Notes: a model not told the origin generated them from the sequence alone. A stretch of 64,000 nt of DNA from an uncultured Gammaproteobacteria bacterium (GCA_963731035.1 CAVSUY010000027.1:265803-329802); one strand, 5' to 3'. Counted from the stretch's first letter, positions 8,999-22,958 are shown. A program made the numbers and translations.

Positions 8999-9709
8999 TT
9001 AAACGTCGGCTGCGGTATCGGTGAGAGCGCCAATGACGCTGCGGTAACCGCCGCGATCCCGCCCGATCATGGTGTAGAAACGCTGCCTGACGTCGGCCGG
9101 AGCGGACGCCGGTATCGACGGCCGGGCCTCTATGGACTTCCACCAGCGCGTGACCTTGGGCCGAGACTCGCCGAACAACCCCATCGACGGGTACAACTGG
9201 TTGGCGAAGTCCAGACGCTGGAGAGCGGGTACATACGCCGCCTCCACCAGCGACATCGACTTGCCGAGAAAGAAGGGGTCTTCGCCCAGTTCCCATTCCA
9301 GGCGGTCCAATTTGGACCTGACACGCTCGACGACGGGGGCCAGCGCCTCCTCGTCCCTGGCGGCGGTGAGGGCGAAACAATCCTGCAGCAGCGCAGTCCC
9401 GAATTCAATCCAGGAACGCACCCTGGCCCTGCGCAACGGGTCGCGGGGCAGCATGGGCGCATCCCCGGCGACCTCGTCCAGATATTCGTTGATCACCAAA
9501 GACTCGAAAAGAACCACCCGCTCACCGTCGTCGGTGGTCACTTCCAGAGTCGGTACCTTGGAAGTCGGCGATATTTCGACGAACCAGTCGGGCTTGTCCT
9601 TCAGGTCTATCTCTTCCAGATCGAAGTCGACGCCCATCTCGCGGAGCATAACCCGGCTGCGCTGCGCAAACGGGCACAGATCGTGGCTGACTAGTCTGTA
9701 TTTCGGCAT
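8999..9709 (-). CDS. glutathione S-transferase family protein (Cys-type, CPF active site)
   Basis: Start at MPKYRLVSHDLCPFAQR (cat at 9707-9709). It has a thioredoxin-like N-domain with VPTLE and ESLVINEYL blocks and a helical C-domain. Confidence 0.8.
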   Translation of the reverse strand: MPKYRLVSHDLCPFAQRSRVMLREMGVDFDLEEIDLKDKPDWFVEISPTSKVPTLEVTTDDGERVVLFESLVINEYLDEVAGDAPMLPRDPLRRARVRSWIEFGTALLQDCFALTAARDEEALAPVVERVRSKLDRLEWELGEDPFFLGKSMSLVEAAYVPALQRLDFANQLYPSMGLFGESRPKVTRWWKSIEARPSIPASAPADVRQRFYTMIGRDRGGYRSVIGALTDTAADV

Positions 9710-9737
9710 AAGGTACAAGTATCTCAGGGTTTGATAC

Positions 9738-11379
9738 GTGAAGACAAAGCTGCGTGCCGCGAGTTCCGGGATCGCCAGTCCCGTGGGGCAGACCGATATT
9801 GAAGCATCGCCCTCGCGCCCGCACAATCCAGAGCATGGCAATTTGCGTGAAATACCTCCGACGGGGCGCTTGTTGAGCACAGACAGCACCCAATCCGCGT
9901 CGGCCGTTCCGCGGCTTGAGAGCACCTACGCCCGTCTGCCGGAGCAGTTCTATGCCAGGCTGGGACCGACAGGCATGCCGGAACCCTCGCTGGCCCGCCT
10001 GAACCGGCCCCTGGCCGAACAGCTGGGGCTGGATCCCGATTGGCTCATGACCTCCGAAGGCGTCGAGTTTCTTGCCGGCAAGCGGGTTGCCGACGGCGCC
10101 GAGCCCTTGGCCATGGCCTATGCCGGCCACCAGTTCGGGCAGTTCGTGCCCAGCCTCGGAGACGGTCGCGCCCTGCTTCTGGGCGAGCTCGTCGGGGCCG
10201 ACGGCGTGCGGCGCGATATCCACCTCAAGGGATCGGGCCGCACCCCATTCTCCCGTTCCGGGGACGGCCGCGCGCCACTCGGTCCGGTGTTGCGGGAGTA
10301 TATCCTCGGGGAAGCTATGGCGGCGCTCGGTGTCCCGACGACGCGCGCCCTGGCCGTAGTCACCACCGGGGAGCGCCTGTTCCGAGAACGTATGGAGCCC
10401 GGCGCGATCCTCGCCCGGGTGGCCACCAGTCACGTCCGCGTCGGCACTTTCGAGTATTTCTACCGCCGCGGGGATCTCGACTCCGTGCGCATCCTCTCGG
10501 ACTACGTCATAGAGCGCCACTATCCGTACTGTCGCGAGGCCGACAATCCCTACCGGGCGCTGCTGGACGAAATCGTCACGCGCCAGGCAGACCTGCTTTC
10601 GCAATGGATGCTGCTGGGCTTCATCCACGGCGTGATGAATACAGACAATATGTCGGTCTGCGGCGAAACCATCGACTATGGGCCGTGCGCATTCATGGAC
10701 ACCTACCGGCCGGACGCCGTCTACAGCTCCATTGACCACGGGGGACGCTACGCCTACAACCAGCAGCCACGCATCGCCTTCTGGAACCTGACGCAACTCG
10801 CCCAGTGCCTGCTGCTCGCTGTTCGACGACGATGAGGACAAGGCTCTGAGTTGCGCCCGAGAGACCCTCGAGACCTACGCCAGCCGGTTCGAAGCGAGTT
10901 ATCACGCCGGAATACGGTCCAAGATCGGCTTGCCCGGAGAACGCGACGACGATACCGACCTGGCACTCGACCTGCTGAACCGGATGAGCGGCGAGCGGGC
11001 CGACTACACCAATACCTTCCGAGGTCTTTGCGAGGTCAACACGAGGGACGCGGCCGCCGACGGACACGTGCGCAGCCTGTTCGAGGATGCGGATGTCTTC
11101 GACGAATGGGCCGCACGATGGCGCAAGCGCCTGTCGGCGGACAATCGTACGCAAGCCGAACGCTGCGCCGCGATGCGCGCCGTGAACCCCGCCTACATCC
11201 CCCGCAACCATCGAGTCCAACAAGCGATCGATGCGGTCGTGCTCGAAGGCGACCCCGCGTCTCTGGAAAACCTGCTCGCGGTAACCGGACGACCGTTCGA
11301 GGACAACGCGCTCCTGTCCGACTACGCCCGGCCACCCCGTCCCGACGAGGCCGTCTTGCGGACTTTCTGCGGTACCTGA
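9738..11379 (+). pseudogene. selO: selO (YdiU/UPF0061 protein adenylyltransferase) interrupted by a +1 frameshift near 10816
   Basis: ORF 9738..10835 carries the SelO N-terminal and catalytic region ([15 protein letters not shown]) and stops at 10833-10835. The C-terminal part, ending RTFCGT, continues in another frame to 11379. Removing one T from ctgctgcTcgctgttc restores [12 protein letters not shown]. The true start is uncertain (GTG at 9738, or TTG at 9870/9873). Confidence 0.8.
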
Positions 11380-11631
11380 AAACATACCTGACGTGCCAAT
11401 CCCGGGACGGCCACCCTTGCGGGCGCCGGGCCTCGATCCATGCGCCAATCCTGTGCACGGCCACGGCCGTCCCGACCCGGGCCGCGACGCTTGCTTGCAT
11501 TCCCTGCCGGTCGGTTGTAATCTACTAAACGTCCGTTTAATAAGAGACCGGTATCACGTCGTCAGTCGTTGCCCCCGAGTCGCGACAAAGGCGTGACACG
11601 ACCGACAACCACACAAAGGGGAGAAATCATC

Positions 11632-13266
11632 ATGACCAATTCGTCGACCCAGTCCGCAGCCGGCCCCGGCGTGTTTTCCCGCAAGGCGTCCGGCCTGCTT
11701 CGCGTCGCCGGGGCCTGGGACACGTTCATCTTCAATATCGGCCTCGTGTCGGTCGGTATCGCCATCGCCCTGAATCAGTACTACGGCCCGAGCCTGTACG
11801 GCGGCGCAGCCCCCTGGTTGTCCACGATCATCGCCGCAGTCGGAATGCTGTTCGCGGCCGGGACCTTCTATCTGTGGTCGGTCACTTTTCCCCGTTCCGG
11901 CGGCGTCTACCTGTCACTCTCTCGCGGCGTGAGTCCAGGGGTCGCCTTCGTGATGACACTGATCGAGACCCTCATCCTCATGTACTATGCCGCGCTCGCC
12001 GCTTCCTTAATCGTCTCCGTCGGGTTGTCGTCGTTCCTGGGGTCCATCGGTCTCGTCGCCGGCAGCGACAGGCTCATCGCCTGGAGCGCCGTAGTAGTAA
12101 CTCCCAATGGCATGTTCATCTGCGGCAGCATCATCCTGCTGCTCGCCGGCATCCTGCTGGCATCCGGTACTCGAAACTACTTCTTCGTTCAACGGATTCT
12201 GTTCGTGGTTGCAGTGATCGGGACCCTGGTGACCATCGGCGTGCTGATGTTCGGCAGCGAAAAGACTTTTCTCGACAATCTTCACAATCTTACCGGGCTC
12301 GATAGCGACACCGTATTTTCGGTGGCCAAGGAAAACGGCTGGGCACCGGCCGAGTTCAGCTGGAGCCAAACCTTCGCCTTCCTGGTGTGGCCGCTGCTGC
12401 CGCTGCTCGGCGCAATCCAGTCCGTCGGCATCGGCGGAGAGATCAAGCGAGTCGACCGCTCACAGCTCTATGGCATGTTCGGCGCCGTACTCACGGCCGC
12501 GGCCCTCATCGCTCTGGTGGGTTATCTGTCCGACCGCACCTTCGGCTACGATTTCCAGGCCGCTCTCGCCTACAACTCCATTCTGGGGAACCTGAATGGG
12601 TCAATCGAGAATGCGGCGGGCGCCGCCCCGTGGTTCACCGTGCTTGCGGGCATCCTCACGGACAGCGTGATACTCACCACCATCGTTATGGCGGCTTTTG
12701 TCGCCTGGATATGGTTCTGGATTCCGGCCGAAATCGCCTATACCACCCGGACCATGCTGGCCTGGTCGTTCGATCGTCTGGCGCCGGACGCCCTGGGGCA
12801 GGTGAGCGAGCGGCTGCACACACCGGTCGTCGCCATAGGGCTGTCCACCGTCATCTCGATCGTGTTCATGGCGCTCATCGCCTATGCCAATATCTCCCTG
12901 CTGACCCTCATTGAAGTGCTTCTGGTCATCTGGGGCCTGTCCATGCTGGCGGCGGTGTTCTTTCCTGTAACCAAACCGGAACTCTTCAAGCTTTCCCCGG
13001 CGTCGCGCGTGCGCTTTGCGGGCATGCCCGTGATGTGCATCACCGGCCTGATCTCCACCGCCTTCTTCGCGGTCGTGATCTGGATGCTTTGGAACGATCC
13101 GAACGCTGCGGGTCCCCTGGTTTCCTCAGCGGGGACCACCCTGGAGTTCTGGATCATTCTCGCCGCCGTTGTCCTCGGCATCATCTGGTATCGGGTGATC
13201 AGGGCCCGGCGGCGCATGGAGGGCATTGATATGGATATTGCATTCCGGCAGCTGCCCATCGAATGA
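11632..13266 (+). CDS. APC-superfamily amino acid/amine permease
   Basis: ATG at 11632 is preceded by aaaggggag. The product is a roughly 544-aa polytopic protein with APC-like topology. It is the first gene of a tightly spaced plus-strand operon. Confidence 0.8.
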   Translation: MTNSSTQSAAGPGVFSRKASGLLRVAGAWDTFIFNIGLVSVGIAIALNQYYGPSLYGGAAPWLSTIIAAVGMLFAAGTFYLWSVTFPRSGGVYLSLSRGVSPGVAFVMTLIETLILMYYAALAASLIVSVGLSSFLGSIGLVAGSDRLIAWSAVVVTPNGMFICGSIILLLAGILLASGTRNYFFVQRILFVVAVIGTLVTIGVLMFGSEKTFLDNLHNLTGLDSDTVFSVAKENGWAPAEFSWSQTFAFLVWPLLPLLGAIQSVGIGGEIKRVDRSQLYGMFGAVLTAAALIALVGYLSDRTFGYDFQAALAYNSILGNLNGSIENAAGAAPWFTVLAGILTDSVILTTIVMAAFVAWIWFWIPAEIAYTTRTMLAWSFDRLAPDALGQVSERLHTPVVAIGLSTVISIVFMALIAYANISLLTLIEVLLVIWGLSMLAAVFFPVTKPELFKLSPASRVRFAGMPVMCITGLISTAFFAVVIWMLWNDPNAAGPLVSSAGTTLEFWIILAAVVLGIIWYRVIRARRRMEGIDMDIAFRQLPIE

Positions 13267-13296
13267 ACCGGCGCCACTACCGGCCACGAGTCTCTC

Positions 13297-14088
13297 TTGC
13301 CCGCGTCAACTGAGGCACCGGATTGGCTGACGGTCCGCGAGGAGGCGCTCGGCCTCGTCATCGCGGCCGCGGAACAGCAACTCATGCTGCGACTCGTCGG
13401 TTCCGTTGGCATACGCCTGCATGCCCCGCACCTGGAGCACTTGATGGAACGGCTGCGTCCGGCGCCCAAGGACCTGGATTTCGTCTGCCGCAAGCAGGAC
13501 CGCAGCGCGCTGCGTACATTGCTCGAGGCACGGGGCTACGAAAACGACCGCAACATGCTGGTGGCCATGGAGGGCCAGCGCTACCTGTTCATCCATAGGG
13601 AAACAGGCCTCAAGCTCGACATATTCGTGGATCAGTTGGACTTCTGTCATCGAATCGATTTGCGTGGCTGCCTGCACAGACACCCGGTCACCATCCCCGT
13701 GGAGCAGCTGATCCTGCACAAGCTCCAGATCGTGGAACTCACCGAGGGTGACCTGATCGATCTCGGCATAATGCTCTCGAGCTTCGCACCGGGGAAGGAG
13801 GGCGACACCGGCGCCTACTCCCTGGATCGGCTCCTCGCGCCACTGGCCGAGACCTGGGGGTTCTGGCGCACCGCGACCGGCAATCTGGACCTCGTACGCG
13901 ATCTGGCAGAGCGCGGCAGCTACCCCGTGCTCGACGAGCATGCCCAGGCGCGCATAGCCGCCCGGGCGAATGCGCTCCTCGAGGCGGCGCACGCCGTGCC
14001 CAAGCGCGTTCCGTGGAAGCTGCGGGCCAGGCTGGGGGAACGCATGCAGTGGTGGCAGGACGTGGACGATCGCGAGGGAACCTACTGA
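13297..14088 (+). CDS. hypothetical protein with a minimal nucleotidyltransferase-fold signature
   Basis: The pattern LVGSVG ... DLDFV ... KLDIFVD fits hG[GS]-x-DhD-x-D of pol-beta-type nucleotidyltransferases. The TTG start is uncertain. Its stop overlaps the next ATG (TGATG at 14086-14090). Confidence 0.45.
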   Translation: MPASTEAPDWLTVREEALGLVIAAAEQQLMLRLVGSVGIRLHAPHLEHLMERLRPAPKDLDFVCRKQDRSALRTLLEARGYENDRNMLVAMEGQRYLFIHRETGLKLDIFVDQLDFCHRIDLRGCLHRHPVTIPVEQLILHKLQIVELTEGDLIDLGIMLSSFAPGKEGDTGAYSLDRLLAPLAETWGFWRTATGNLDLVRDLAERGSYPVLDEHAQARIAARANALLEAAHAVPKRVPWKLRARLGERMQWWQDVDDREGTY

Positions 14089-15092
14089 TGGCGCTCCTCG
14101 ACCTCCTCAGGAATAGAAGCGCGCCGCAACGCCCCGCCGGAGCGCGAACCTTGTTCTTCGCCACTGACTTCCACGGCTCCGAGATCTGTTTTCGCAAGTT
14201 TCTCAACGCGGCGGGGGTTTACGGCGCCGACCTCCTTATCATGGGTGGAGACCTGTCCGGGAAGCTCGTGATCCCTGTCGTGAACAAAGGCGCCGGATCT
14301 TACGAGGCAAGCCGCCACGGCGAAACCCGCCTGATCGATGCGGCCGACCTGCCCGATTTCGAAAAAGAAATCCGCAACCAGGGCTTCTACCCCTGGCATC
14401 TCGAGGCCGACGAGTTGGAGCACTATCGAACCCATCCGGACGAGGTGGAACGGCTCTTCGAGCAAGCGATCGTCGACACCGTGCAGCGGTGGATCGATCT
14501 CACCGAGGATAAGTTTCGGGGCAGCGACATGCAGATAGTGTTCGCACCCGGCAACGACGACCCGGAAGTCGTCGATCGGAGCATCGCCGAACGCCGCAGT
14601 GAGCATTTTCGGCTGGTGGAAGGCACCATCATTGAAGTGGCGCCCGGCCACGAGATGCTCTCCACCGGCTACACCAACATAACACCGTGGGGCACGCCGA
14701 GGGAGTATCCCGAGGAAGTTATACGGGACCGTATCGAGCGTATCGCTCAGGGGCTGACCCGTCCAGAGACGGCGATCTTCAATCTCCACGTTCCACCCTA
14801 CGCGTCGCAACTTGATACCGCGCCGCTGGTCAACGTGGACCTTTCCGTGCAGACCTCGATGGGACAACGCATGACAGGGCCGGCGGGATCGACCGCCGTA
14901 CGTGAGGCGCTGGAGAAGTGGCAGCCGCTGCTGAGCCTGCACGGTCATATCCACGAATCCGGCGGCACCGCGCGTATCGGCCGGACCCTGGCAATCAACC
15001 CTGGGTCGGAATACAGCGAAGGCGTGCTTCGCGGCGCGCTCGTCACCATCGGGGATGGGAAGCTCCTTAGCCATCAACTGACAACCGGCTGA
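14088..15092 (+). CDS. calcineurin-like metallophosphoesterase
   Basis: Motifs ATDFHG (DxH), MGGDLSG (GD), APGNDD (GNxD/E) and LHGHIHE (GHxH) appear in canonical order. It is translationally coupled to the upstream ORF. Confidence 0.75.
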   Translation: MALLDLLRNRSAPQRPAGARTLFFATDFHGSEICFRKFLNAAGVYGADLLIMGGDLSGKLVIPVVNKGAGSYEASRHGETRLIDAADLPDFEKEIRNQGFYPWHLEADELEHYRTHPDEVERLFEQAIVDTVQRWIDLTEDKFRGSDMQIVFAPGNDDPEVVDRSIAERRSEHFRLVEGTIIEVAPGHEMLSTGYTNITPWGTPREYPEEVIRDRIERIAQGLTRPETAIFNLHVPPYASQLDTAPLVNVDLSVQTSMGQRMTGPAGSTAVREALEKWQPLLSLHGHIHESGGTARIGRTLAINPGSEYSEGVLRGALVTIGDGKLLSHQLTTG

Positions 15093-15142
15093 CTGCGGCT
15101 CGCCGCTGCGGCCTTTCCTGTAAACAAGAACGGGGAGATTCA

Positions 15143-16504
15143 ATGTCTACAATCGCGGAACTCAAGGAACGTCTTCGCAATGAGGGGGTCCGGTACTTCT
15201 TCGGCGCCTACGTCGACGGCCTTGGTGTACCCAAAGCAAAATGCGTGCCCCTCGAGCATCTGGATGATGCGGTGGGGGGCTCGGAGCTCTACACCGTCGG
15301 CGCGCTGGAAGCCATGGGGGCGCTCGGCCCGAACGAGGACGAATGCGTCGGCCTCCCCGACATGGAAACCACGACGGTCCTGCCGTGGGACAAACGCTAT
15401 GCCCTGGCATTCGCCGACCTCCACTTCCGGGGACAGCCCTATGACCATTGCTCGCGAACCGTTCTGAAGCGGCAGATAGCCGCCGCCCGGGCCATGGGAT
15501 TCGGCGTCAATATGGGAGTCGAGCCCGAGGTATACGTCCTGCGCGAGGAGCCGAATGGCGACTGGTTGCCTTTCGTACCCAACGACGCACTGAACGACCC
15601 CACGCGTGGCTACGACATCGAGACGACGATGCTGGCGGACGGGTTTCTCGAGCCCATGGTGAGATATATGAACGAGCTGGGCTGGGACATCTACTCTTTC
15701 GACCACGAAGGCGGTGACGGGCAGTACGAGTTCGATTTCGGCTACTGCGACATGCTGGCAATGGCTGACCGCATGGTCCTGTTCCGGTTGATGTCCAAGC
15801 ACGTGGCACGGCAACTCGGTTGCACGGCCACTTTCATGCCCAAGCCGTATTCCCGGGCGTTCGGATCCGGCGCCCACTTCAATATCAGTCTCGCCGATGT
15901 TGAAACCGGCCGCAACGCCTTCGAAGCCGTCAGCCGGACCGGCACGGGCGCACTGGGCTACAGCGATATCGCGTACCAGTTCACGGCAGGGGTGCTCAAG
16001 CACGTCGATGCCATTACCGCCATCGTGTGTCCCACGGTGAACTCATACAAGCGCCTCAACCCCCGCGGGTTGATGCGCGAGATGTCCTGGGCGCCGGTCT
16101 ACCAGGCCTTCGGACACAACAATCGCACGCTGGTGTGCCGCCTGCCGATGAACCGCAGCTGCCTCGAGCTCCGCCACGCGGACAGCGCGGTGAACTTTCA
16201 CCTCGGCGCAGCGATCACCCTGGCCGCCGGGCTGCGGGGCATCCGCGACGGCCTCCAGCCCGGCGATCCAGTCGAGTTCAACACTTACGAGAAAAGCGAA
16301 GGCGAGCTCGCGGAACGCGGCATCCGCCGGCTTCCGAGAACTCTGGGCGAAGCCATCGAAGCTTTCGCCAACGACGAATTGGCCCGGGAAACGCTCGGGC
16401 CGGCGTTTCACAAGACATACACCGACTACAAGCGCGCCGAGTGGGACGAGTACTGCGTGGTCGTGGGCGAGTGGGAGCGCGAGCGCTACCTTCATATGTG
16501 GTGA
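15143..16504 (+). CDS. glutamine synthetase-family ATP-dependent amide ligase (gamma-glutamyl-amine synthetase-like)
   Basis: GS catalytic blocks are present: GVEPEVYVL, DHEGGDGQYEFDF, KPYSRAFGSGAHFNISL, NSYKRL and NRTLVCRLP. Confidence 0.85.
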   Translation: MSTIAELKERLRNEGVRYFFGAYVDGLGVPKAKCVPLEHLDDAVGGSELYTVGALEAMGALGPNEDECVGLPDMETTTVLPWDKRYALAFADLHFRGQPYDHCSRTVLKRQIAAARAMGFGVNMGVEPEVYVLREEPNGDWLPFVPNDALNDPTRGYDIETTMLADGFLEPMVRYMNELGWDIYSFDHEGGDGQYEFDFGYCDMLAMADRMVLFRLMSKHVARQLGCTATFMPKPYSRAFGSGAHFNISLADVETGRNAFEAVSRTGTGALGYSDIAYQFTAGVLKHVDAITAIVCPTVNSYKRLNPRGLMREMSWAPVYQAFGHNNRTLVCRLPMNRSCLELRHADSAVNFHLGAAITLAAGLRGIRDGLQPGDPVEFNTYEKSEGELAERGIRRLPRTLGEAIEAFANDELARETLGPAFHKTYTDYKRAEWDEYCVVVGEWERERYLHMW

Positions 16505-16548
16505 TCCCCGTGAACCCCGTCATCTGAATCGAAACCCAGGACCGCACG

Positions 16549-17805
16549 ATGTCTGAATCACCAGCAATGCGCTACCAGGCAAACGCCGAGGCCTTTCGTC
16601 GACTGGACGAAAGCGACCCCATGCTGATCGACGTACGACCCGCCGGCGAGGTCGTTCCGGGCATGACCTCCTCCACCGTCTTGACCAGCGGCCGTCCGAT
16701 GCCCTGGGACCGGTATACCGGCGGCCAACGACGCTCCCTGCTGTACGGCGCGATCTACGAAGGACTCGCCGCCGACGAATCCGAGGCCGAGGCCAGGTTC
16801 GCTTCCGGGGAAATCACCGTCGGAGCCTGCCATGAGCATGGATGCGTCGGCTCCGTCGCGGGCATTTATACGGCGTCGATGCCGGTATTCGTGGTGGAGA
16901 ACCGGACCCACGGCAACCGGGCCTTCTGCAACTTCTATGAAGGCGCCTCGCGGCGGCGGCTCAACTACGGCGCCTACGATGACGACGTGCGCGACGGTCT
17001 CGTCTTTCTGGAGAAGATCGTGGCCCCGGTCATCGAGCGGGCCGTACGCCGGGCCGGCGGCATTCCGCTCAAGCCCATCATGCAGCGAGCCGTCCGCATG
17101 GGCGACGAGCTTCACAGCCGGAATACGGCGGCGACCATTCTGTTCGCCCGCGAGTTGACACCCTATCTCTTCGACCTCTACGGCGAGGACCCCGAACCCG
17201 TGCGCAGGACCTACGACTTTCTGACCGACAACGAGTATTCCTTTCTGCGGCTCTCCATGGCCGCGGCCAAGGCTACGGCGGACGCCGCACACGGAGTGGA
17301 AGGATCCAGCGTGGTTAGCGCCATGACCATCAACTGCCGCGGATTCGCTCTCCGCGTCAGTGGGCTCGACGGGGCCTGGTACGACGGCCCCGCGGCGGTG
17401 GTCGAGGCCCAGCTGTTCGACGGATTCACCAAGGATGATATCGAATGGATCGGTGGTGAGAGCCACATCACCGAGACCATCGGTCTCGGCGGTTTCGCAC
17501 AGGCCGCCGCCTTCGCCTTGCAGCGCTACCAGGGGGGGTCGCCGGAGGCGATGGCCGAGAACAACCGGCGGATGTATGACATCACGGTGGGCGAGAACAG
17601 CACCTTCCAGATCCCCTTCTTCGGCTACCGGGGGACACCCACCGGTATAGACGTATTCAAGGTACTGGAAACGGGAATCACCCCGATGATTGACGGCGGC
17701 ATCGCCGGCCGGGACGGCGGGCAAATCGGCGCCGGTATCCTGAGAGCACCTGTCGAGTGTTTCGAGGCTGCACGAGACGCCTGGAACGCCCGCTACGCCG
17801 GTTAG
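16549..17805 (+). CDS. DUF1116-family protein (YlbE/AllH-like)
   Basis: At 418 aa, the length and blocks (VGACHEHGCVGSVAG, FCNFYEG, MGDELHSRNTAAT) match my recollection of the YlbE/DUF1116 family. No FdrA-like or DUF2877 partner is present in the window. Confidence 0.65.
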   Translation: MSESPAMRYQANAEAFRRLDESDPMLIDVRPAGEVVPGMTSSTVLTSGRPMPWDRYTGGQRRSLLYGAIYEGLAADESEAEARFASGEITVGACHEHGCVGSVAGIYTASMPVFVVENRTHGNRAFCNFYEGASRRRLNYGAYDDDVRDGLVFLEKIVAPVIERAVRRAGGIPLKPIMQRAVRMGDELHSRNTAATILFARELTPYLFDLYGEDPEPVRRTYDFLTDNEYSFLRLSMAAAKATADAAHGVEGSSVVSAMTINCRGFALRVSGLDGAWYDGPAAVVEAQLFDGFTKDDIEWIGGESHITETIGLGGFAQAAAFALQRYQGGSPEAMAENNRRMYDITVGENSTFQIPFFGYRGTPTGIDVFKVLETGITPMIDGGIAGRDGGQIGAGILRAPVECFEAARDAWNARYAG

Positions 17806-17815
17806 AACCTTGGAT

Positions 17816-18535
17816 TCAGCGCTTTCTTGCGGCCGCCAGGCCGATCCGCTTGCCGGGCTGATACCCGAGTTGCTGCCAGAGGATGTCGCGCAGGTTCGCC
17901 ACCAGCACCTTGACGTCGGCATCGGCACGCATCATGGACGCCAGAAAGATACCGTCGAGATGGACCGATACGAACAAGGCCATTTCCTCGGTATCCACCC
18001 GGTGAAACAGCCCGGTGCGGATACCCTCGTCTATGCATTCGGTGAAAAGGTCTGTTTCGCGCTGGTACAGATCCGAAATCAATCGGTCGATCTCTTCGTC
18101 GCGGGCATCGGAGTACGCGTAGTCCACCGAGATCTTCACCAGCTTGACCAGGCTGCGGTAGACGGAAATGTTGATCTCGAACCAGCCCTCGATCAGCTCC
18201 ACGGGGTCGTCCGCCCTGCCGCGAAGCTTCGCATACTCGCCGAGGGCTTCCCGGATCGAGGACTCGATGGCGGCGCGAAACAATCCTTTCTTGCTGCCGA
18301 AGTAGTAGTAGATGAGCGCGATATTGATATCGCAGGCCGTGGCTATATCCCGGATCTTGACGCTCTCGTAGTAGCTCTTCGCGAAGAGATCCAGTGCAAC
18401 GGACAGGATCATGCGCCGGCGTTCATCAGGCGGCCTGCGGCGGCGTCTGGCGGGCGGCTGCTGGGCCTCGGTCCCTGTATCCTCGTCGTCTGGCAAAGTG
18501 GTTTGAGTTCGTTCTGTGACGAATTTGAAGAGCAT
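17816..18535 (-). CDS. TetR/AcrR-family transcriptional regulator
   Basis: N-terminal HTH segment ILSVALDLFAKSYYESVKIRDIATACDINIALIYYYFGSKKGLF. It is divergent from the formamidase gene. Confidence 0.85.
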   Translation of the reverse strand: MLFKFVTERTQTTLPDDEDTGTEAQQPPARRRRRPPDERRRMILSVALDLFAKSYYESVKIRDIATACDINIALIYYYFGSKKGLFRAAIESSIREALGEYAKLRGRADDPVELIEGWFEINISVYRSLVKLVKISVDYAYSDARDEEIDRLISDLYQRETDLFTECIDEGIRTGLFHRVDTEEMALFVSVHLDGIFLASMMRADADVKVLVANLRDILWQQLGYQPGKRIGLAAARKR

Positions 18536-18538
18536 TTT

Positions 18539-18564
18539 AAAGGACCGGTTTCAACCGACCCTTT
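18539..18564. promoter_or_regulatory. imperfect 26-bp palindrome, candidate TetR operator
   Basis: aaaggaccggtttcaaccgacccttt matches its own reverse complement at 10 of 13 half-site positions. It fills most of the 44-bp gap between the TetR and formamidase starts. Confidence 0.3.
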
Positions 18565-18579
18565 CAGCGGCGCGCCGAA

Positions 18580-19527
18580 GTGACCGCAACTCGCCTGAAG
18601 CATACCATACATGCCGAACACCATCACTGGTGGTGGGATCGCGCCATCCCGCCCGTCCTCGAAGTCGAACCCGGAACGGTTATCGATCTGGAGCTCAACG
18701 ATCCGGGAGGGGGTCAGATCGGCCCCGGCTCGTCAACGAGCGAGTTGCTGCAGCTGGACTTCAGCCGCATCAACCCGGTCACCGGTCCGGTATGGATCGA
18801 CGGCGCCGAGCCCGGAGATGCGGTGCACATCGAGCTGCTTTCCGTCGAACCCTGCGGCTGGGGATGGTCGGCGCTGATCCCACGATTCGGTCTGCTCGCG
18901 GATGACTTCCTGGAACCGCATCTCGTGCAATGGCATTACGACCGCGCCGGACAGGTGCCGGCGGCCTTGCAGGGAGCCGGGCGTGTTCCCACGAACCCGA
19001 TGATAGGCTCCCTGGGCCTCGCACCGGGCGCGCCGGGTCCGCACGATATCCTGCCCCCGAGGCGCGTTGGCGGAACCATGGACATCAGGGATATGGTCGC
19101 CGGATCGATCCTCTGCCTTCCCGTGGAGGTAGCGGGAGCCCTCCTGTCCTGTGGCGACGGCCATGCTGCGCAGGGCGACGGCGAGGTGTGCGGCACGGGG
19201 CTGGAAACGGCCCTGAAAGTAAGCCTGCGCGTGAATCTGGAGAAGCATGCCGCGCCGCGCGCACCGAGGTTCTCCGTGCCGGGGCCCGTCACCAGCCATC
19301 TCGACGAGGCCGGTTACGACGTCACCACCGGAGTGGGTCCTGATCTGATGACCGGCGCACGCGACGCCGTGCGCTCAATGATCGACCTGTTGAGTTCGCG
19401 CGAGAAGATGACTCCCGAGGATGCCTACATACTGTGCAGCGTCGCCGGGGACCTGCGCATCAGCGAGATCGTCGATGCGCCGAACTGGATCGTCTCGTTC
19501 TACTTCCCTCGCATCGTCCTCGAATAA
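18580..19527 (+). CDS. acetamidase/formamidase (FmdA_AmdA) family amidohydrolase
   Basis: 315 aa, GTG start. The blocks GPVWIDGAEPGD, GGTMDIRD and HAAQGDGEVCGTG(L)E are typical of the family. Confidence 0.8.
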   Translation: MTATRLKHTIHAEHHHWWWDRAIPPVLEVEPGTVIDLELNDPGGGQIGPGSSTSELLQLDFSRINPVTGPVWIDGAEPGDAVHIELLSVEPCGWGWSALIPRFGLLADDFLEPHLVQWHYDRAGQVPAALQGAGRVPTNPMIGSLGLAPGAPGPHDILPPRRVGGTMDIRDMVAGSILCLPVEVAGALLSCGDGHAAQGDGEVCGTGLETALKVSLRVNLEKHAAPRAPRFSVPGPVTSHLDEAGYDVTTGVGPDLMTGARDAVRSMIDLLSSREKMTPEDAYILCSVAGDLRISEIVDAPNWIVSFYFPRIVLE

Positions 19528-19599
19528 AGCGCATGGGAGACCGACGCATGTCCTGAAGATACCGCGACGGCCTCCGCCGGCGGCGCCGGGTTGCAGGCG

Positions 19600-20604
19600 T
19601 CAAACTACGAGGACAATCTTGCCGAAGTGCCCGGCGCCGGCCATGGCGTGAAACGCGGCGGGGGCGTTCTCGAAGGAGAAAGTACGGTGAATCACCGGCT
19701 TCAGCGCATGGAAGGCAATCGCCCGATTCATTTCCGCGAACATGCTTCGCGGGCCGACGTAGATTCCTTGAAGCCGAATGGATTTGCGCATGACCATCAC
19801 GGGATTGATCTGCCCGCCCGTAAGTACCCCAATGAGAACGATGGTGCCCGCCACCCGGGTCGCGGCGATGGAACGCTCGAGGGTACCGGCTCCGCCAACC
19901 TCGATCACCGCATCCACGCCGCGCCCTCCAGTCAGTGCCAGCACTTTCCCGTCCCAGTCGGGGCGGGCGGCATAGTTGACGGTCTCCCATGCGCCCAGTT
20001 CTCGCGCACGAGCCAGCTTCTCCTCGCTCGACGAGGTGATAATCGCGCGGACACCCAGCAACCGCGCGAACTGCAGCGCGAACACCGACACACCGCCGGT
20101 GCCGAGCAGAAGCACGGTATCTCCCGCCTTGACCCGCGCCACTTCAACCAGGGCCCGCCACGCCGTCAAAGCCGCGCATGGCAGCGTCGCGGCTTCCGCG
20201 AAGTCGAGATGTCCCGGAATTGGCACCACGCCCCGCGCCTTCAATACCACCTCCTCGGCCAGCACGCCGTCCAACGCGCCGCCCAGCGCGCTGGCCATCG
20301 CCGTCTGTGAGCACGGCCCGGCCTCCCAGTCCTGGAAGAAACAGCCGGCAACGCGGTCGCCCACCGCCACGCCCGCGACGCCCTGACCGACGGCGACGAT
20401 CTCGCCCGCCCCGTCCGAGTTGGGAACGCGTGGAAACGGCAAATTACGAGACGCCGGATCCCGCACGGTCGCGAGGTCGCGATAGTTGATGGACGACGCC
20501 CGCATCTTCACACGGACTTCTCCGGGCCCCGGGTCGCGGGCTTCGCGTTCCACACATTCCAGTGCATCGATGCCGTCGTTCGAATTGATCTGCCACACAC
20601 GCAT
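19600..20604 (-). CDS. zinc-type medium-chain alcohol dehydrogenase/quinone oxidoreductase (MDR family)
   Basis: Start at MRVWQINS (cat at 20602-20604). It has a GroES-like N-domain (DGAGEIVAVG) and a Rossmann LLLGTGGVS segment. Confidence 0.85.
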   Translation of the reverse strand: MRVWQINSNDGIDALECVEREARDPGPGEVRVKMRASSINYRDLATVRDPASRNLPFPRVPNSDGAGEIVAVGQGVAGVAVGDRVAGCFFQDWEAGPCSQTAMASALGGALDGVLAEEVVLKARGVVPIPGHLDFAEAATLPCAALTAWRALVEVARVKAGDTVLLLGTGGVSVFALQFARLLGVRAIITSSSEEKLARARELGAWETVNYAARPDWDGKVLALTGGRGVDAVIEVGGAGTLERSIAATRVAGTIVLIGVLTGGQINPVMVMRKSIRLQGIYVGPRSMFAEMNRAIAFHALKPVIHRTFSFENAPAAFHAMAGAGHFGKIVLVV

Positions 20605-20976
20605 TGTCCGGTCTCCTCGACTGCGCGAAGGTTCGGCGCCGCCCGCAGCGACGCATTGCAACGGCCCCTATTCTAATGCAGGCGCGACATGGCCGGGATG
20701 GAGGAACCGAAGATCGCGAGACCGGGTCAGCGCGCGTGCCGCCGTGCGGCTTCTTTCGCTGGATAGCCGCGCCGGCTGCGCCGCCTCGCAATGACCAACA
20801 GGGGCGGATGCGCCGGACAGTCGGCTGGTCATGGCAGGGAACGAAGCGACGAAGCAATCCGGTGATACTGCCAACTCGTCGCTTTTCCGGCGGCCGTCAT
20901 GCGGATCATAGCAGCCGGCATCGCGCCCACGATGGGCACGTAGTATCATCCCCACGATCCCCACTCCAATCCCCTG

Positions 20977-22191
20977 ATGCTTCATAAAGACGAACTGTCG
21001 GCGGCTCTCACCGGCATGGTGACCCTGGCCGTGGCTATGGGCATCGGACGCTTTGCCTTCACGCCCCTGCTGCCAATGATGCAGGATGATGTCGGCCTGT
21101 CGATCTCCGCCGGAGGGGGCCTGGCGGCGGCCAACTACGTGGGCTACTTCATCGGCGCCGTCAGCGCCCTCTGGCTGCGCTTTTCGCCGCCGGCCATGAT
21201 CGGTCTCGCACTTGCGGCGGTGTCCGTGTCCACCGCCGCCATGGGAGTGGTTCACGCTCCGCTTGCCTGGTTGGCGCTGCGCGCGGCAGCCGGCATCGCA
21301 AGCGCCTGGGCACTGGTGTTCGCATCGGCGTGGACCCTGCGACTGCTCGCGGTGCGCGACCGCCGGGGCCTCAACGGCGTACTGTTCGGGGGCGTCGGCC
21401 TCGGCATCGCGGTGACGGGTATCGCTTGCCTGGTGTTCCTGACGCCGCTGCACTGGTCCAGCGACCGGGCCTGGCTGGCGCTGGGCGGTCTCGCCTGCCT
21501 GGCGTCGGTACCCGCGTGGTATGTCTACCACCACCTGTTCCATCGCCTGGAAGCCACCGTCGCCCAGGCCACGGGGGAGCAAACGAATCCATCGACCACT
21601 TCCTCGCGGGCCTGGCTGCTGGTGATCTGCTATGGGGCTTTCGGCTTCGGCTATATCATTCCTGCCACCTTCCTCCCGGCCATGGCCCGCCATCTGGTAG
21701 CGGACCCCGCGGTGTTCGGCTGGGCGTGGCCCATCTTCGGTGCCGCGGCCCTGGCATCCACTCTGGCGGCGGGGCGTCTGGCCCGGCGCTTCTCCAGTAG
21801 GACGCTATGGATCGCCGGGCACCTGATCATGGCGGCGGGAGTGGCGGTTCCAATAGCGTGGCCCGGCATGACCGGCATCGTCGTTGCAGCGCTGTGTGTC
21901 GGCGGAACGTTCATGGTGGTGGCTATGACCGGCCTGCAACTCGCCCGTGAAGGCGCACCCCGAAACCCGCAGCGCTTGATGGCCGCCATGACCGCCTCGT
22001 TCGCTTTGGGCCAGATCCTCGGTCCCGCGCTCGTCAGCCTCGCCGGGAGAGACGGCTTGACCGGGTTGTCCGTTGCCGCAGCAGTCGTCCTGGTGCTCAG
22101 CGCCGCGGCACTGGGGCTGCGCACAAGCGGCACACCTGCGCGGAACGACGGCCTCGCCCCCTCTGGAGAGAACGGTCCCTTCCCTACGTAG
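20977..22191 (+). CDS. YbfB/YjiJ-family MFS transporter
   Basis: The N-terminal block AMGIGRFAFTPLLPMMQDD is characteristic of the family, and the protein has about 12 TM helices. Confidence 0.75.
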   Translation: MLHKDELSAALTGMVTLAVAMGIGRFAFTPLLPMMQDDVGLSISAGGGLAAANYVGYFIGAVSALWLRFSPPAMIGLALAAVSVSTAAMGVVHAPLAWLALRAAAGIASAWALVFASAWTLRLLAVRDRRGLNGVLFGGVGLGIAVTGIACLVFLTPLHWSSDRAWLALGGLACLASVPAWYVYHHLFHRLEATVAQATGEQTNPSTTSSRAWLLVICYGAFGFGYIIPATFLPAMARHLVADPAVFGWAWPIFGAAALASTLAAGRLARRFSSRTLWIAGHLIMAAGVAVPIAWPGMTGIVVAALCVGGTFMVVAMTGLQLAREGAPRNPQRLMAAMTASFALGQILGPALVSLAGRDGLTGLSVAAAVVLVLSAAALGLRTSGTPARNDGLAPSGENGPFPT

Positions 22192-22308
22192 GCAACTGCC
22201 GCGAGGGTCTTCGTTTGCGGAAGGTCCGGATCGAGCCCATCGGCGGTGCCCTGTCGTGCCAGGGCGAGACCGGCTTCGCGGCCGGACAGAGTGAAGCCGT
22301 AATCCAGC

Positions 22309-22851
22309 TCAGTAGGTCCCCTTCTTACCAACGCCTACGTAGGTGAACTCCCAGCTCACATCGAAGGGCGGCCACCACGCCGCGACCCCGGTTTCCTCGT
22401 CCGTATGCCGATAGAAGCCCTGGTAGGGGGGAGGCGTGACGTGATACGCGACGTGGTATTTGCCCGGTCCGTCAAGCTTGATATTCGCACCGTAGTGCGG
22501 GCCGTCACTCGCCACCATGGGCATGAAAGCACCGAAGGTCTGCCAGTCGGCGCCCAGCTTCTCGATGCGATAGGTGATGCCGAGGTAAGGCACCCACGAT
22601 CCCGGTGGGAAACCGTTAGGGTTCTTTGCCAGAGCATGGATGTCGGCTTCGAGATGGATGTCCGCCGCACTGCCGTCCATCCCCGCCAGCGCCGGCTTCA
22701 TGACTACCGGCTGCAGGTACACGGCGCCCACCTCCATGTAATTCTTCTCGAACGCGGCGCCCAGGGGATACTCGGCCGCGTTCACCGCGCCCACCGAGAG
22801 CAGCACGGCGGCGCCGATGCACGATGAAAGGATCCTGCTCTTGTGACTCAT
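22309..22851 (-). CDS. P19/FtrA-type periplasmic iron(copper)-binding iron-uptake protein
   Basis: This is the last 180 aa of the 696-aa ORF, starting at MSHKSRILSSCIGAAVLLSVGAVNA (signal peptide; cat at 22849-22851). The blocks HLEADIHA, PHYGANIKL and YHVAYHV resemble Campylobacter P19 and Bordetella FtrA. Confidence 0.8.
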   Translation of the reverse strand: MSHKSRILSSCIGAAVLLSVGAVNAAEYPLGAAFEKNYMEVGAVYLQPVVMKPALAGMDGSAADIHLEADIHALAKNPNGFPPGSWVPYLGITYRIEKLGADWQTFGAFMPMVASDGPHYGANIKLDGPGKYHVAYHVTPPPYQGFYRHTDEETGVAAWWPPFDVSWEFTYVGVGKKGTY

Positions 22852-22958
22852 GGTTGGCTCTCCTGCTTTGAGGTAAGAATGAATGAGACGCATTCGCGGT
22901 TTATGACTAAAAAAAGAGACCCCCAACCCGTTCCGCGTCGCGGCTGTCTTGTCTGCCC

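What the first reader, a model, noticed from the sequence alone, without database searches (positions are those of the whole stretch)
11632..17805. Tightly packed five-gene operon with no pathway I can assign
The gene order is APC permease, nucleotidyltransferase-fold protein, metallophosphoesterase, GS-like ligase, then DUF1116. Gaps between consecutive genes are 30 bp, an overlap (TGATG), 50 bp and 44 bp, all on one strand, so co-transcription is likely. Each part is individually recognisable. I know of no described pathway that joins an amine/amino-acid importer, a nucleotidyl-transfer/phosphoester-hydrolysis pair, an ATP-dependent gamma-glutamyl-type amide ligase and a YlbE/AllH-like protein. 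One reading is uptake of an amine or amide-containing nitrogen compound, followed by activation or ligation (GS-like) and further processing. The divergent TetR and formamidase unit directly downstream may belong to the same regulon. Codon usage looks native (high GC3), so this is not an obvious mobile insertion.
Basis: inference. Interest (0 to 1): 0.6.

Follow-up and report, generated by a model that had tools for sequence, protein, structure and literature searches.

The report
Conserved uncharacterised organic-nitrogen uptake cassette
The five genes are a real, widely conserved unit that also includes the downstream amidase. It is built from a transporter with two unknown partner enzymes plus an amine-ligating enzyme set, it probably imports and assimilates a small nitrogen-rich compound, and it matches no described pathway.

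Summary
Five + strand genes lie at 11632-17805 with gaps of 30, -1 (TGATG), 50 and 44 bp. The fold calls for the two Pfam-less proteins are confirmed by invariant catalytic motifs and by confident AlphaFold models.

The unit is larger and more modular than described.
- **Module 1** is a trio of a divergent APC permease, a pol-beta nucleotidyltransferase (P2) and a metallophosphoesterase (P3). It recurs in about 75 of 80 P2-bearing loci, in five bacterial phyla and two archaeal MAGs, and in several gene orders. Its neighbouring C-N enzymes vary: agmatinase-type, CN-hydrolase, DUF917, MttB/corrinoid.
- **Module 2** is a GmaS-like ligase with an altered, more acidic amine pocket, an AllG/DUF1116 protein and a short FmdA/AmdA amidase. 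It was added once, in a mainly actinobacterial clade. The window's copy nests inside that clade.

P2 occurs in 2 of 400 genomes of the window's class and in 42 of 301 Actinomycetota. The own genome lacks AllF and AllH, so this is not oxamate carbamoyltransferase.

A palindrome, TTAAAC-N4-GTTTAA, lies upstream of the permease only in TetR-bearing loci. This ties the TetR/amidase pair to the operon.

The substrate and the role of P2/P3 remain inferred. No literature describes the cassette.

The parts
11523..11542 (.). Operator-like palindrome (core CTAAAC-GTCC-GTTTAA, 11525-11540), 92 bp upstream of the permease ATG, between -35-like and -10-like hexamers
   Evidence: the repeat finder reports arms 11523-11531 and 11534-11542. 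TTAAAC-N4-GTTTAA with at most 1 mismatch occurs once in the window, L001, L014 and L017, always 70-105 bp upstream of the permease. It occurs nowhere else in 94 loci.
11632..13266 (+). Divergent APC-superfamily permease (544 aa), member of the conserved trio
   Evidence: PF13520 at 57 bits. No PDB relative at E<=0.01. Found next to P2 and P3 in about 75 of 80 loci. The extreme C-terminal tail is conserved.
13297..14088 (+). P2: pol-beta-fold nucleotidyltransferase (263 aa), PF14907-related
   Evidence: Invariant G35-S36, D59xD61 and D108. AF2 pLDDT 91.8. Foldseek matches 4ok0, LnuA and ANT(2'')-Ia. The family holds 3032 clusters at 50% identity.
14088..15092 (+). P3: metallophosphoesterase (334 aa) with an inserted cap region; start overlaps the P2 stop (TGATG)
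   Evidence: DxH, GGD, GNDD, H235 and GHxH are invariant in 47 homologues. AF2 pLDDT 92.3. Foldseek matches 2yvt and 1uf3 at E 3e-13 to 5e-11, then UshA and Mre11/SbcD.
15143..16504 (+). GmaS-type gamma-glutamyl-amine ligase homologue (453 aa) with an altered amine pocket
   Evidence: Best PDB match is 9qur, Glu-methylamine ligase, at 6e-93; 7cql scores 1e-73. It has the Trp flap, lacks Asp50', and keeps D177 and E186. It differs at Q175S, N188D and W189F. The motif YSFDHEGGxGQYEF(D/E)F is conserved, with rare substitutions, in group A.
16549..17805 (+). AllG/DUF1116-family protein (418 aa) with no AllF or AllH partner in this genome
   Evidence: PF06545 at 248 bits. 3clq matches at 6e-84. It is 38% identical to E. 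coli YlbE. It is the only AllG in the genome, which has no AllH and no FdrA orthologue.
17816..18535 (-). TetR-family regulator (239 aa), convergent with AllG and divergent from the amidase
   Evidence: PF00440 at 47 bits, plus weak BetI-type C-terminal hits. The TetR + amidase arrangement is conserved in L001, L014 and L017.
18539..18564 (.). Imperfect palindrome AAAGGACCGGTT-TC-AACCGACCCTTT filling the 44-bp TetR/amidase intergenic region
   Evidence: Read from the sequence. The ACCGGT and TTTAAA cores are reported by the repeat finder. It is not conserved in L001, L014 or L017, so its meaning is uncertain.
18580..19527 (+). Short (about 315 aa) acetamidase/formamidase-family amidase; sixth gene of the cassette
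   Evidence: PF03069 at 176 bits. Best PDB match is 2ii1 at 9e-36. It scores far below the FmdA equivalog cut-off, 96.8 against 500. It follows AllG directly in L010, L013 and others.

Best explanation
This is a six-gene, TetR-controlled cassette for uptake and assimilation of a small organic nitrogen compound. It is assembled from two evolutionary modules.

Module 1 is the APC permease with the P2 nucleotidyltransferase and the P3 metallophosphoesterase. It is an ancient import core that different lineages plug into different C-N-cleaving enzyme sets.

Module 2 is a GmaS-like ATP-dependent ligase, an orphan AllG/DUF1116 protein and a short FmdA/AmdA-type amidase. It is the lineage-specific processing part.

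Proposed working:
1. The repressor leaves the TTAAAC-N4-GTTTAA site when the substrate is present.
2. The permease imports a cationic, nitrogen-rich amine. The best guess is a guanidino- or ureido-type or other short amine, not methylamine.
3. The GS-like enzyme gamma-glutamylates its free amino group.
4. AllG and the amidase then release the nitrogen as ammonia or a carbamoyl unit and regenerate glutamate or glutamine.
5. P2 and P3 make and break a nucleotidyl phosphodiester. I favour a reversible nucleotidylyl switch acting on the transport step (about 40%) over action on the imported molecule itself (about 30%).

Shown: gene content, catalytic competence of P2 and P3 by motifs and fold, the two-module structure, co-conservation, the lack of AllF/AllH, the altered amine pocket, and horizontal origin.

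Inferred: the substrate class, the order of reactions, TetR binding to the palindrome, and the role of P2/P3.
For: Co-conservation: the order permease-P2-P3-GS-AllG recurs in L001, L003, L005, L008-L010, L013, L014 and about 30 genome-contig loci. All five genes are retained in shuffled order in L006 and L049.

The trio is independent of module 2. Permease + P2 + P3 lie within 8 kb in about 75 of 80 P2 loci. These span Actinomycetota, Chloroflexota, Bacillota, Dormiibacterota, Pseudomonadota, Nitrososphaerota and Thermoplasmatota, in at least four gene orders.

Companion enzymes of the trio vary but all handle organic nitrogen:
- agmatinase family in 10 loci, of which 5 of the 7 scanned pass the TIGR01230 cut-off;
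- CN-hydrolase in 6 loci and DUF917 in 6;
- MttB/corrinoid/Fe-ADH/Aldedh clusters in 4;
- M24/creatinase-like, amidase and FmdA in others.

The amidase belongs to the unit. It abuts AllG co-directionally in about 15 loci.

The GS-like enzyme is of GmaS type, with catalytic Asp and Glu kept. Two pocket residues changed to Ser and Asp/Glu, and this change is conserved.

P2 and P3 are catalytically intact, and P2-P3 translational coupling is conserved.

The operator palindrome occurs only in TetR-bearing loci.

One gain of module 2 and a nested alphaproteobacterial clade appear in the P3 tree.
Against: - There are no transcript, phenotype or biochemical data.
- No riboswitch or other ligand clue was found.
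- No enzyme that would further convert a gamma-glutamyl amide (oxidase, dehydrogenase, gamma-glutamyl hydrolase) is in the cassette.
- AllG has no known activity on its own; OXTCase needs AllF, AllG and AllH (PMC11326118).
- In 7 of 8 other cassette-bearing genomes an AllH exists elsewhere, so AllG independence is shown only for this genome and one more.
- The nearest structural relatives of P2 are small-molecule O-nucleotidyltransferases, and P3 has a capped pocket. Both features fit action on a metabolite better than on a protein.
- Each trio copy carries its own P2/P3, up to 3 per genome. This is not what a global regulatory switch would predict.
- The palindrome is not repeated in the TetR/amidase intergenic regions of the relatives.
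Confidence: 0.5

Rival explanations
1. P2 and P3 act on the transported molecule, not on a protein. In one version the import substrate carries a hydroxyl or phosphoester group (for example a phospho- or nucleotide-linked amino alcohol or guanidino alcohol). P3 then removes the phosphoester and P2 nucleotidylylates or phospho-transfers it. In the other version P2 traps the solute as a nucleotidyl adduct and P3 releases it. The rest of the cassette works as in the best explanation.
For: P2's closest structures are LnuA, ANT(2'')-Ia and a small H. pylori NTase. P3 resembles TT1561, aq_1956 and UshA and has an inserted cap over the active site. Small-molecule kinases sit beside some trios: choline/APH-type kinase in 3 loci and an FGGY kinase in L063. 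Each permease copy has its own P2/P3 pair.
Against: The accompanying enzymes imply chemically unrelated substrates (guanidino compounds, quaternary amines, primary amines) with no obvious shared modifiable group. Making and breaking a phosphodiester on the same metabolite is futile unless the two enzymes cleave different bonds. No APC permease known to me imports phosphoesters (my own knowledge).
Confidence: 0.3
2. The GS-like/AllG/amidase module is a variant of ureide catabolism. AllG works as in oxamate carbamoyltransferase on oxalurate or another N-acylurea, with partners encoded elsewhere.
For: AllG is full length and 38% identical to E. coli YlbE. Most other cassette genomes also encode an AllH somewhere. 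The only known AllG reaction cleaves an N-acylurea (PMC11326118).
Against: The own genome is 97.5% complete. It has one AllG, no AllH, no FdrA orthologue and only SucCD-like ligase pairs. No carbamate kinase or allantoin gene lies in the locus. In the cassette, AllG is linked to the GS-like gene, not to FdrA.
Confidence: 0.05
3. The cassette is a methylamine (GmaS) or polyamine (PuuA-type) gamma-glutamylation pathway with unusual accessory genes.
For: The best solved relatives are two GmaS enzymes. The next NCBIfam hits include gamma-glutamylputrescine synthetase. Pairing an APC permease with a GS-like enzyme recalls PuuP/PuuA (my own knowledge).
Against: Two of the seven methylamine-pocket residues named for RhGmaS, and the adjacent ribose-contact Trp189, are replaced, and the replacements are conserved. 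The protein is below the TIGR03105 cut-off and far below the PuuA equivalog cut-off, 239 against 650. No N-methylglutamate synthase or dehydrogenase, and no PuuB/C/D-type gene, was seen among the ten genes scanned between 11632 and 22191 or in the related loci.
Confidence: 0.08
4. The cassette is biosynthetic or protective. It would make and export a gamma-glutamyl amide, or detoxify an imported toxic analogue by nucleotidylylation.
For: P2 resembles antibiotic-inactivating NTases. GS-like ligases are used in some natural-product pathways (my own knowledge).
Against: The regulators are of catabolic type: TetR, AsnC/Lrp, LacI, GntR. The partners are hydrolases and demethylases of nitrogen compounds. 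No biosynthetic scaffold genes are present.
Confidence: 0.05

Closest known systems
GmaS (gamma-glutamylmethylamide synthetase; PDB 9qur, 7cql) of the N-methylglutamate pathway
   Same: Same GS-derived fold and length. It has Trp in place of the Glu of the flap and lacks Asp50'. The catalytic Asp177/Glu186 and the metal and ATP residues are kept.
   Different: Pocket residues differ: Gln175->Ser, Asn188->Asp/Glu, Trp189->Phe, conserved in the whole group. It is below the TIGR03105 cut-off. No mgs or mgd genes are present. It is linked instead to AllG, an amidase and the trio.
Oxamate carbamoyltransferase AllFGH of E. coli (PMC11326118)
   Same: The AllG subunit homologue is 38% identical over its full length.
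   Different: AllF and AllH are absent from the genome. The constant neighbour is a GS-like ligase. There is no carbamate kinase in the locus.
Puu pathway (PuuP permease + PuuA gamma-glutamylputrescine synthetase) and Streptomyces GlnA2/3/4 systems (my own knowledge)
   Same: An APC-type importer is encoded with a GS-like ATP-dependent amine ligase for use of an amine as a nitrogen source.
   Different: No oxidase, aldehyde dehydrogenase or gamma-glutamyl hydrolase is present. The PuuA equivalog score is far below its cut-off. The extra NTase, phosphoesterase and AllG have no counterpart.
Small-molecule O-nucleotidyltransferases LnuA and ANT(2'')-Ia; H. pylori putative NTase 4ok0
   Same: Pol-beta NTase core with G-S...DxD...D, plus a helical C-terminal domain.
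   Different: Only weak structural similarity (TM 0.38-0.60, 12-17% identity). The genomic context is a transporter and nitrogen-catabolic enzymes, not resistance.
TT1561 (1uf3) and aq_1956 (2yvt), uncharacterised Metallophos_3-type phosphoesterases
   Same: Same metallophosphoesterase core and motifs.
   Different: P3 is roughly 80-110 residues longer, with an inserted beta-meander/helical cap. Neither relative has a known substrate.
GlnE/GlnD-type reversible nucleotidylylation of nitrogen-assimilation proteins (my own knowledge; functional analogy only)
   Same: A pol-beta-fold NTase is used in control of nitrogen assimilation. A make-and-break nucleotidyl cycle is the logic proposed here.
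   Different: No sequence or fold match to GlnE or GlnD appeared in the top 50 Foldseek hits. Removal here would be by a separate metallophosphoesterase. The target is unknown.

Membership tests
Oxamate carbamoyltransferase (AllFGH) | AllG (PF06545) subunit present | tested here: met
   248 bits; 38% identity to E. coli YlbE.
Oxamate carbamoyltransferase (AllFGH) | AllF (FdrA) subunit encoded in the genome | tested here: not met
   E. coli FdrA finds only 25-27% partial hits on the two SucD-like genes. Ligase_CoA occurs only as two beta/alpha pairs.
Oxamate carbamoyltransferase (AllFGH) | AllH (PF11392/DUF2877) subunit encoded in the genome | tested here: not met
   No match in the 97.5%-complete genome. 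The E. coli control rings.
Oxamate carbamoyltransferase (AllFGH) | Oxalurate phosphorolysis activity | not testable with these tools
   Needs an enzyme assay.
GmaS / N-methylglutamate pathway | GS-derived ligase of the GmaS type (Trp flap, no Asp50', Asp177/Glu186) | tested here: met
   Alignment to 7cql and 9qur, read against the residues named in PMC7948447.
GmaS / N-methylglutamate pathway | Methylamine pocket residues Tyr147, Gln175, Asp177, Glu179, Glu186, Asn188, Lys30' | tested here: not met
   Gln175->Ser and Asn188->Asp; the neighbouring Trp189->Phe. Conserved in the group A loci.
GmaS / N-methylglutamate pathway | Linked mgsABC/mgdABCD genes | tested here: not met
   None among the ten genes scanned between 11632 and 22191, or in related loci. 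The rest of the genome was not searched.
True glutamine synthetase (GlnA) | Ammonium-site Asp50' and catalytic Glu of the flap | tested here: not met
   Tyr and Trp at the corresponding positions. GlnA equivalog 260 bits against a cut-off of 429.
PuuA (gamma-glutamylputrescine synthetase) | Score above the NF045547 equivalog cut-off | tested here: not met
   239 bits against 650.
Pol-beta nucleotidyltransferase superfamily (P2) | G[SG] ... [DE]x[DE] ... third carboxylate, and the NTase fold | tested here: met
   G35 (invariant)-S36, D59xD61 and D108 invariant in 48 sequences. Foldseek probability 1.00 to NTases. PF14907 on homologues.
Metallophosphoesterase superfamily (P3) | Motifs DxH, GD, GNH(D/E)-type, H, GHxH, and the fold | tested here: met
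   D28xH30, G54-G55-D56, N157-D158-D159, H235 and H286-G-H288-x-H290 are invariant. Foldseek E 3e-13.
APC transporter superfamily (permease) | Pfam AA_permease_2 above the gathering score | tested here: met
   57.4 bits against 27. Subfamily undetermined: no PDB relative and TIGR00909 at 16 bits.
Formamidase FmdA (equivalog) | Score above the NF045496 cut-off; about 400-aa architecture | tested here: not met
   96.8 bits against 500. It is 315 aa and belongs to the short 2ii1-like acetamidase/formamidase type. Family membership in PF03069 is met.

The most novel reading that the evidence does not exclude
The permease-nucleotidyltransferase-phosphoesterase trio is a previously unrecognised module shared by bacteria and archaea. 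In it a dedicated make-and-break nucleotidyl cycle gates or drives uptake of organic nitrogen cations. The GS-like/orphan-AllG/amidase set is a new ATP-dependent assimilation route. One example would be gamma-glutamylation of a guanidine- or urea-type nitrogen, followed by AllG-type cleavage of the resulting N-acyl-urea to glutamine plus a carbamoyl unit.
Probability: 0.22. Interest if true: 0.85.

Novelty: new variant of a known kind. Interest (0 to 1): 0.62.

Why it matters
The P2 family alone comprises about 3,000 clusters at 50% identity. It occurs in about 14% of sampled Actinomycetota species genomes, mostly uncultured soil lineages. Neither it, nor its phosphoesterase partner, nor the cassette has any described function.

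Working it out would add a route by which abundant soil bacteria scavenge organic nitrogen. It would also give the first function for an AllG protein outside oxamate carbamoyltransferase. Finally, it could reveal a new way in which a transporter is coupled to nucleotide chemistry.

The window's organism is one of very few in its class that carry the cassette. If it is culturable, it would be a convenient host for genetics.

Tried and rejected
- **Rfam scan** of 9000-23000 at E<=1: no riboswitch or leader, so no ligand clue.
- **Promoter and terminator scan:** no sigma-70 consensus site was found, and terminator-like sites were not above shuffles.
- **Sequence search of P2, P3 and the permease against PDB:** nothing useful. 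Fold search was needed instead.
- **TetR against PDB and NCBIfam:** only generic TetR hits and weak BetI-type C-terminal similarity. No ligand inference was drawn.
- **Second copy of the operator in the TetR/amidase intergenic regions:** the window has a different imperfect palindrome (18539-18564) that shares TTTAA and ACCGGT with the permease upstream region. The relatives do not conserve it, so it was not used as evidence.
- **Apparent AllG::FmdA fusion in L008:** the same long-read MAG also splits AllG in two. It may be an indel artefact and was not counted as a Rosetta-stone fusion.
- **My own ORF caller on high-GC loci:** it first picked antisense frames. I replaced it with a GC1/GC2/GC3 rule. 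Neighbour tallies are therefore floors.
- **Literature searches** for DUF1116, PF14907, PF14582 and combinations of the enzyme names found no paper on this cassette.
- **One call failed** because the 'of' argument was wrong.

Full report
**Observation**

The region holds five + strand ORFs exactly as described:
- permease, 11632-13266;
- P2, 13297-14088;
- P3, 14088-15092, whose ATG shares one base with the P2 stop (TGATG);
- GS-like, 15143-16504;
- AllG/DUF1116, 16549-17805.

The gaps are 30, -1, 50 and 44 bp.

Pfam and NCBIfam recognise three of the five: the permease (PF13520, 57 bits), the GS-like protein (PF00120, 298 bits; TIGR03105, 456 bits, just under its cut-off of 469.6) and AllG (PF06545, 248 bits). 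P2 and P3 have no family hit of their own.

Downstream lie four further genes:
- a convergent TetR gene (17816-18535, - strand);
- a divergent short acetamidase/formamidase-family gene (18580-19527);
- a Zn-ADH;
- an MFS_4 transporter.

**The two Pfam-less proteins**

P2 homologues often carry PF14907. In an alignment of 48 homologues the pol-beta nucleotidyltransferase signature (G35-S36, D59xD61, D108) is invariant, together with a set of charged residues in the helical C-terminal half. The AlphaFold model is confident, with pLDDT 91.8. Its nearest solved structures are a small H. pylori NTase, LnuA and ANT(2'')-Ia. The similarity is weak beyond the catalytic core.

P3 has all metallophosphoesterase motifs invariant in 47 homologues: DxH, GGD, GNDD, H, GHxH. 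Its model has pLDDT 92.3. The model matches the uncharacterised TT1561 and aq_1956 proteins at E 3e-13 to 5e-11, followed by UshA and Mre11/SbcD. It has an extra inserted cap.

**Co-conservation**

Contigs encoding P2 or P3 homologues at 40-60% identity show the same order, permease-P2-P3-GS-AllG. These come from an alphaproteobacterial MAG (L001), a Trebonia MAG (L003), several soil metagenome contigs (L005, L008-L010, L013) and a Dongiaceae/Rhodospirillaceae MAG (L014). In L006 all five genes are present in a different order.

A scan of one genome per species with the P2 alignment gave 80 loci. tblastn of the seven window proteins on all loci showed two things.
- Permease, P2 and P3 lie together in about 75 of the 80 loci, in at least four gene orders. 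The taxa are Actinomycetota, Chloroflexota, Bacillota (Acididesulfobacillus acetoxydans, Peptococcaceae CEB3), Dormiibacterota, a few Pseudomonadota and two archaeal MAGs.
- The GS-like and AllG genes accompany the trio almost only in the subgroup whose P2 is at least 40% identical to the window's (group A); L049 and L074 are exceptions.

In the P3 tree, group A is one well-supported clade (99 SH-aLRT, 29 rows). This fits a single acquisition of the second module.

**The amidase and the regulator**

In about 15 group A loci an FmdA/AmdA-family gene follows AllG on the same strand, usually with abutting or overlapping stop and start codons (for example L010 and L013). In the alphaproteobacterial loci (window, L001, L014, L017) a TetR gene is inserted between AllG and the amidase.

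The actinobacterial and alphaproteobacterial amidases are only 29% identical. The activity, rather than one particular gene, seems to be what is retained.

Upstream of the permease the four alphaproteobacterial loci share a palindrome, TTAAAC-N4-GTTTAA. In the window it reads CTAAACGTCCGTTTAA at 11525-11540, 92 bp before the ATG. With at most one mismatch it occurs once in each of these loci. It occurs nowhere else in the 64-kb window or in the other roughly 85 loci.

Actinobacterial versions carry a divergent AsnC/Lrp gene instead and lack the palindrome. This is the expected pattern if the TetR protein controls the permease operon. Binding itself is inferred.

**What the trio travels with**

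I tallied the co-directional neighbours of the trio in loci without module 2. Agmatinase-family ureohydrolases occur in 10 loci. Seven of them were scanned, and five (L077, L086, L089, L092, L093) pass the TIGR01230 cut-off. CN-hydrolases occur in 6 loci, DUF917/thiohydantoin-desulfurase-like proteins in 6, and M24/creatinase-like proteins and amidases in others.

In four anaerobe loci the trio sits inside clusters of MttB-family methyltransferases, corrinoid-system proteins, Fe-alcohol and aldehyde dehydrogenases. By my own knowledge, such clusters are typical of quaternary-amine catabolism.

The common denominator is small organic nitrogen compounds, often cationic. The chemistry downstream of import differs from lineage to lineage.

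One Trebonia MAG has three P2 copies and a Nitrososphaeria MAG has two. The P2 family has 3,032 clusters at 50% identity, and nearly all members are stand-alone proteins of 250-270 aa. Two members have N-terminal extensions that look, by eye, like an IclR-type HTH and a Roadblock/LC7 domain (not scanned).

**The GS-like enzyme**

Its best solved relatives are two glutamate-methylamine ligases, 9qur at 6e-93 and 7cql at 1e-73. I mapped the residues described for RhGmaS (PMC7948447) onto the alignment.
- Kept: the catalytic Asp177 and Glu186, the metal and ATP ligands, Lys30', and the Trp that replaces the flap Glu.
- Absent: the Asp50' of true glutamine synthetases.
- Changed in the amine pocket: Gln175->Ser and Asn188->Asp, with the adjacent Trp189->Phe.

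The motif YSFDHEGGxGQYEF(D/E)F is conserved in nearly every group A locus, with a few substitutions at its first or last Tyr (L025, L034, L039). It is recognisable in the divergent L006, L049 and L074 copies. The enzyme is therefore a distinct orthologous group. A wider, more acidic pocket suggests a bulkier or doubly cationic amine than methylamine. That step is inference.

**AllG**

The protein is 38% identical over its full length to E. coli YlbE/AllG. The only known AllG function, oxamate carbamoyltransferase, needs AllF, AllG and AllH together (PMC11326118).

The window's genome is 97.5% complete. It has a single AllG, no AllH, and no FdrA orthologue beyond two SucCD-like pairs. Here AllG must therefore work without its known partners.

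One caveat applies. In 7 of 8 other cassette-bearing genomes an AllH exists elsewhere. It lies beside a second AllG in about half of them (G159, G497, G676, G715, probably G597). In two genomes it is the only one, with no second AllG detected.

Across group A, AllG keeps 58-72% identity while P2 drops to 41-54%. It is under strong constraint.

**Origin**

Composition is native: GC3 is 0.75-0.82 in the cassette and in the flanks. P2, however, is found in only 3 of 61 relatives and 2 of 400 genomes of the window's class. It is found in 42 of 301 evenly sampled Actinomycetota. The window's P3 groups with three alphaproteobacterial MAGs inside an otherwise actinobacterial clade. Old horizontal acquisition is the simplest reading.

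**Mechanism, and how sure I am**

I am fairly confident (about 0.5-0.6) that this is an inducible uptake-and-assimilation cassette for an organic nitrogen compound. I am also fairly confident that the GS-like enzyme ligates its amino group to glutamate.

The substrate class is a guess. Guanidino-, ureido- or other short cationic amines fit three things: the trio's companions, the acidic pocket, and the N-acylurea chemistry of the only characterised AllG system.

For P2/P3 I can only rank models.
- **Reversible nucleotidylyl switch tied to the transport step, about 40%.** It is favoured because the pair is constant while the downstream chemistry changes. Making and breaking a phosphodiester on one metabolite would also be futile.
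- **Action on the imported molecule (trapping, or removal of a phosphoester), about 30%.** It is favoured by the small-molecule character of the nearest structures, by the capped P3 pocket, by neighbouring small-molecule kinases in a few loci, and by each permease copy having its own pair.

**Earlier notes of this scan**

The notes describe the same six-gene operon in two other genomes. They also describe a related four-gene core 'usually beside enzymes that split guanidine-type compounds'. My neighbour tallies reproduce that association independently. I treat the notes as leads, not support.

**Not done**

No multimer modelling was possible. The cassette AllG subfamily was not systematically compared with AllF/AllH over all genomes.

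Noticed in passing
L079 1-16700 (Acididesulfobacillus acetoxydans), also L071, L076, L087: In anaerobes the permease/P2/P3 trio is embedded in clusters with up to three MttB-family methyltransferases, a hydantoinase-like protein, DUF1638, a pterin-binding methyltransferase, Fe-ADH, aldehyde dehydrogenase and an aldehyde:ferredoxin oxidoreductase. This looks like quaternary-amine (choline/betaine-type) catabolism. A. acetoxydans is a cultured isolate and could be used for experiments.
   Followed up: partly
window 13200-13266 (permease C-terminus): The extreme C-terminal cytoplasmic tail of the permease (G-x-D ... L-P-x-E) is conserved across both groups of loci, although the permeases are only 25-30% identical overall. 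It is a candidate docking motif for P2 or P3.
   Followed up: partly
window 18539-18564: The whole 44-bp TetR/amidase intergenic region is filled by an imperfect palindrome, AAAGGACCGGTT-TC-AACCGACCCTTT. It shares TTTAA and GACCGGT with the permease upstream region (11534-11555) but is not conserved in the related loci.
   Followed up: partly
L008 12112-14311: AllG is split into two ORFs, and the second is read through into the FmdA/AmdA gene, giving a 537-aa AllG+FmdA product. This is either a real fusion or indel errors in a long-read MAG.
   Followed up: no
P0305 and P0368 (P2-family proteins from the representative search): Two P2 homologues carry N-terminal extensions of about 140-150 residues. 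By eye these look like an IclR-type HTH domain and a Roadblock/LC7 domain. They were not scanned against Pfam and may be gene-call fusions.
   Followed up: no
L003 1408-2505 (Trebonia MAG), L005/L009 downstream of AllG: A RuBisCO-large-like gene lies upstream of the Trebonia cassette. A Peripla_BP_4 + creatinase_N/M24 + second amino-acid permease block lies just downstream of AllG in two actinobacterial contigs. These may be linked catabolic modules.
   Followed up: no
I saw the two ORFs (9738-10835 and 10851-11528) but did not examine the junction.
   Followed up: no
L063 9770-11308 (Nitrososphaeria MAG): An FGGY-family carbohydrate kinase directly follows permease-P2-P3 in an archaeal locus, and a glutamate dehydrogenase lies divergently upstream.
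   Followed up: no
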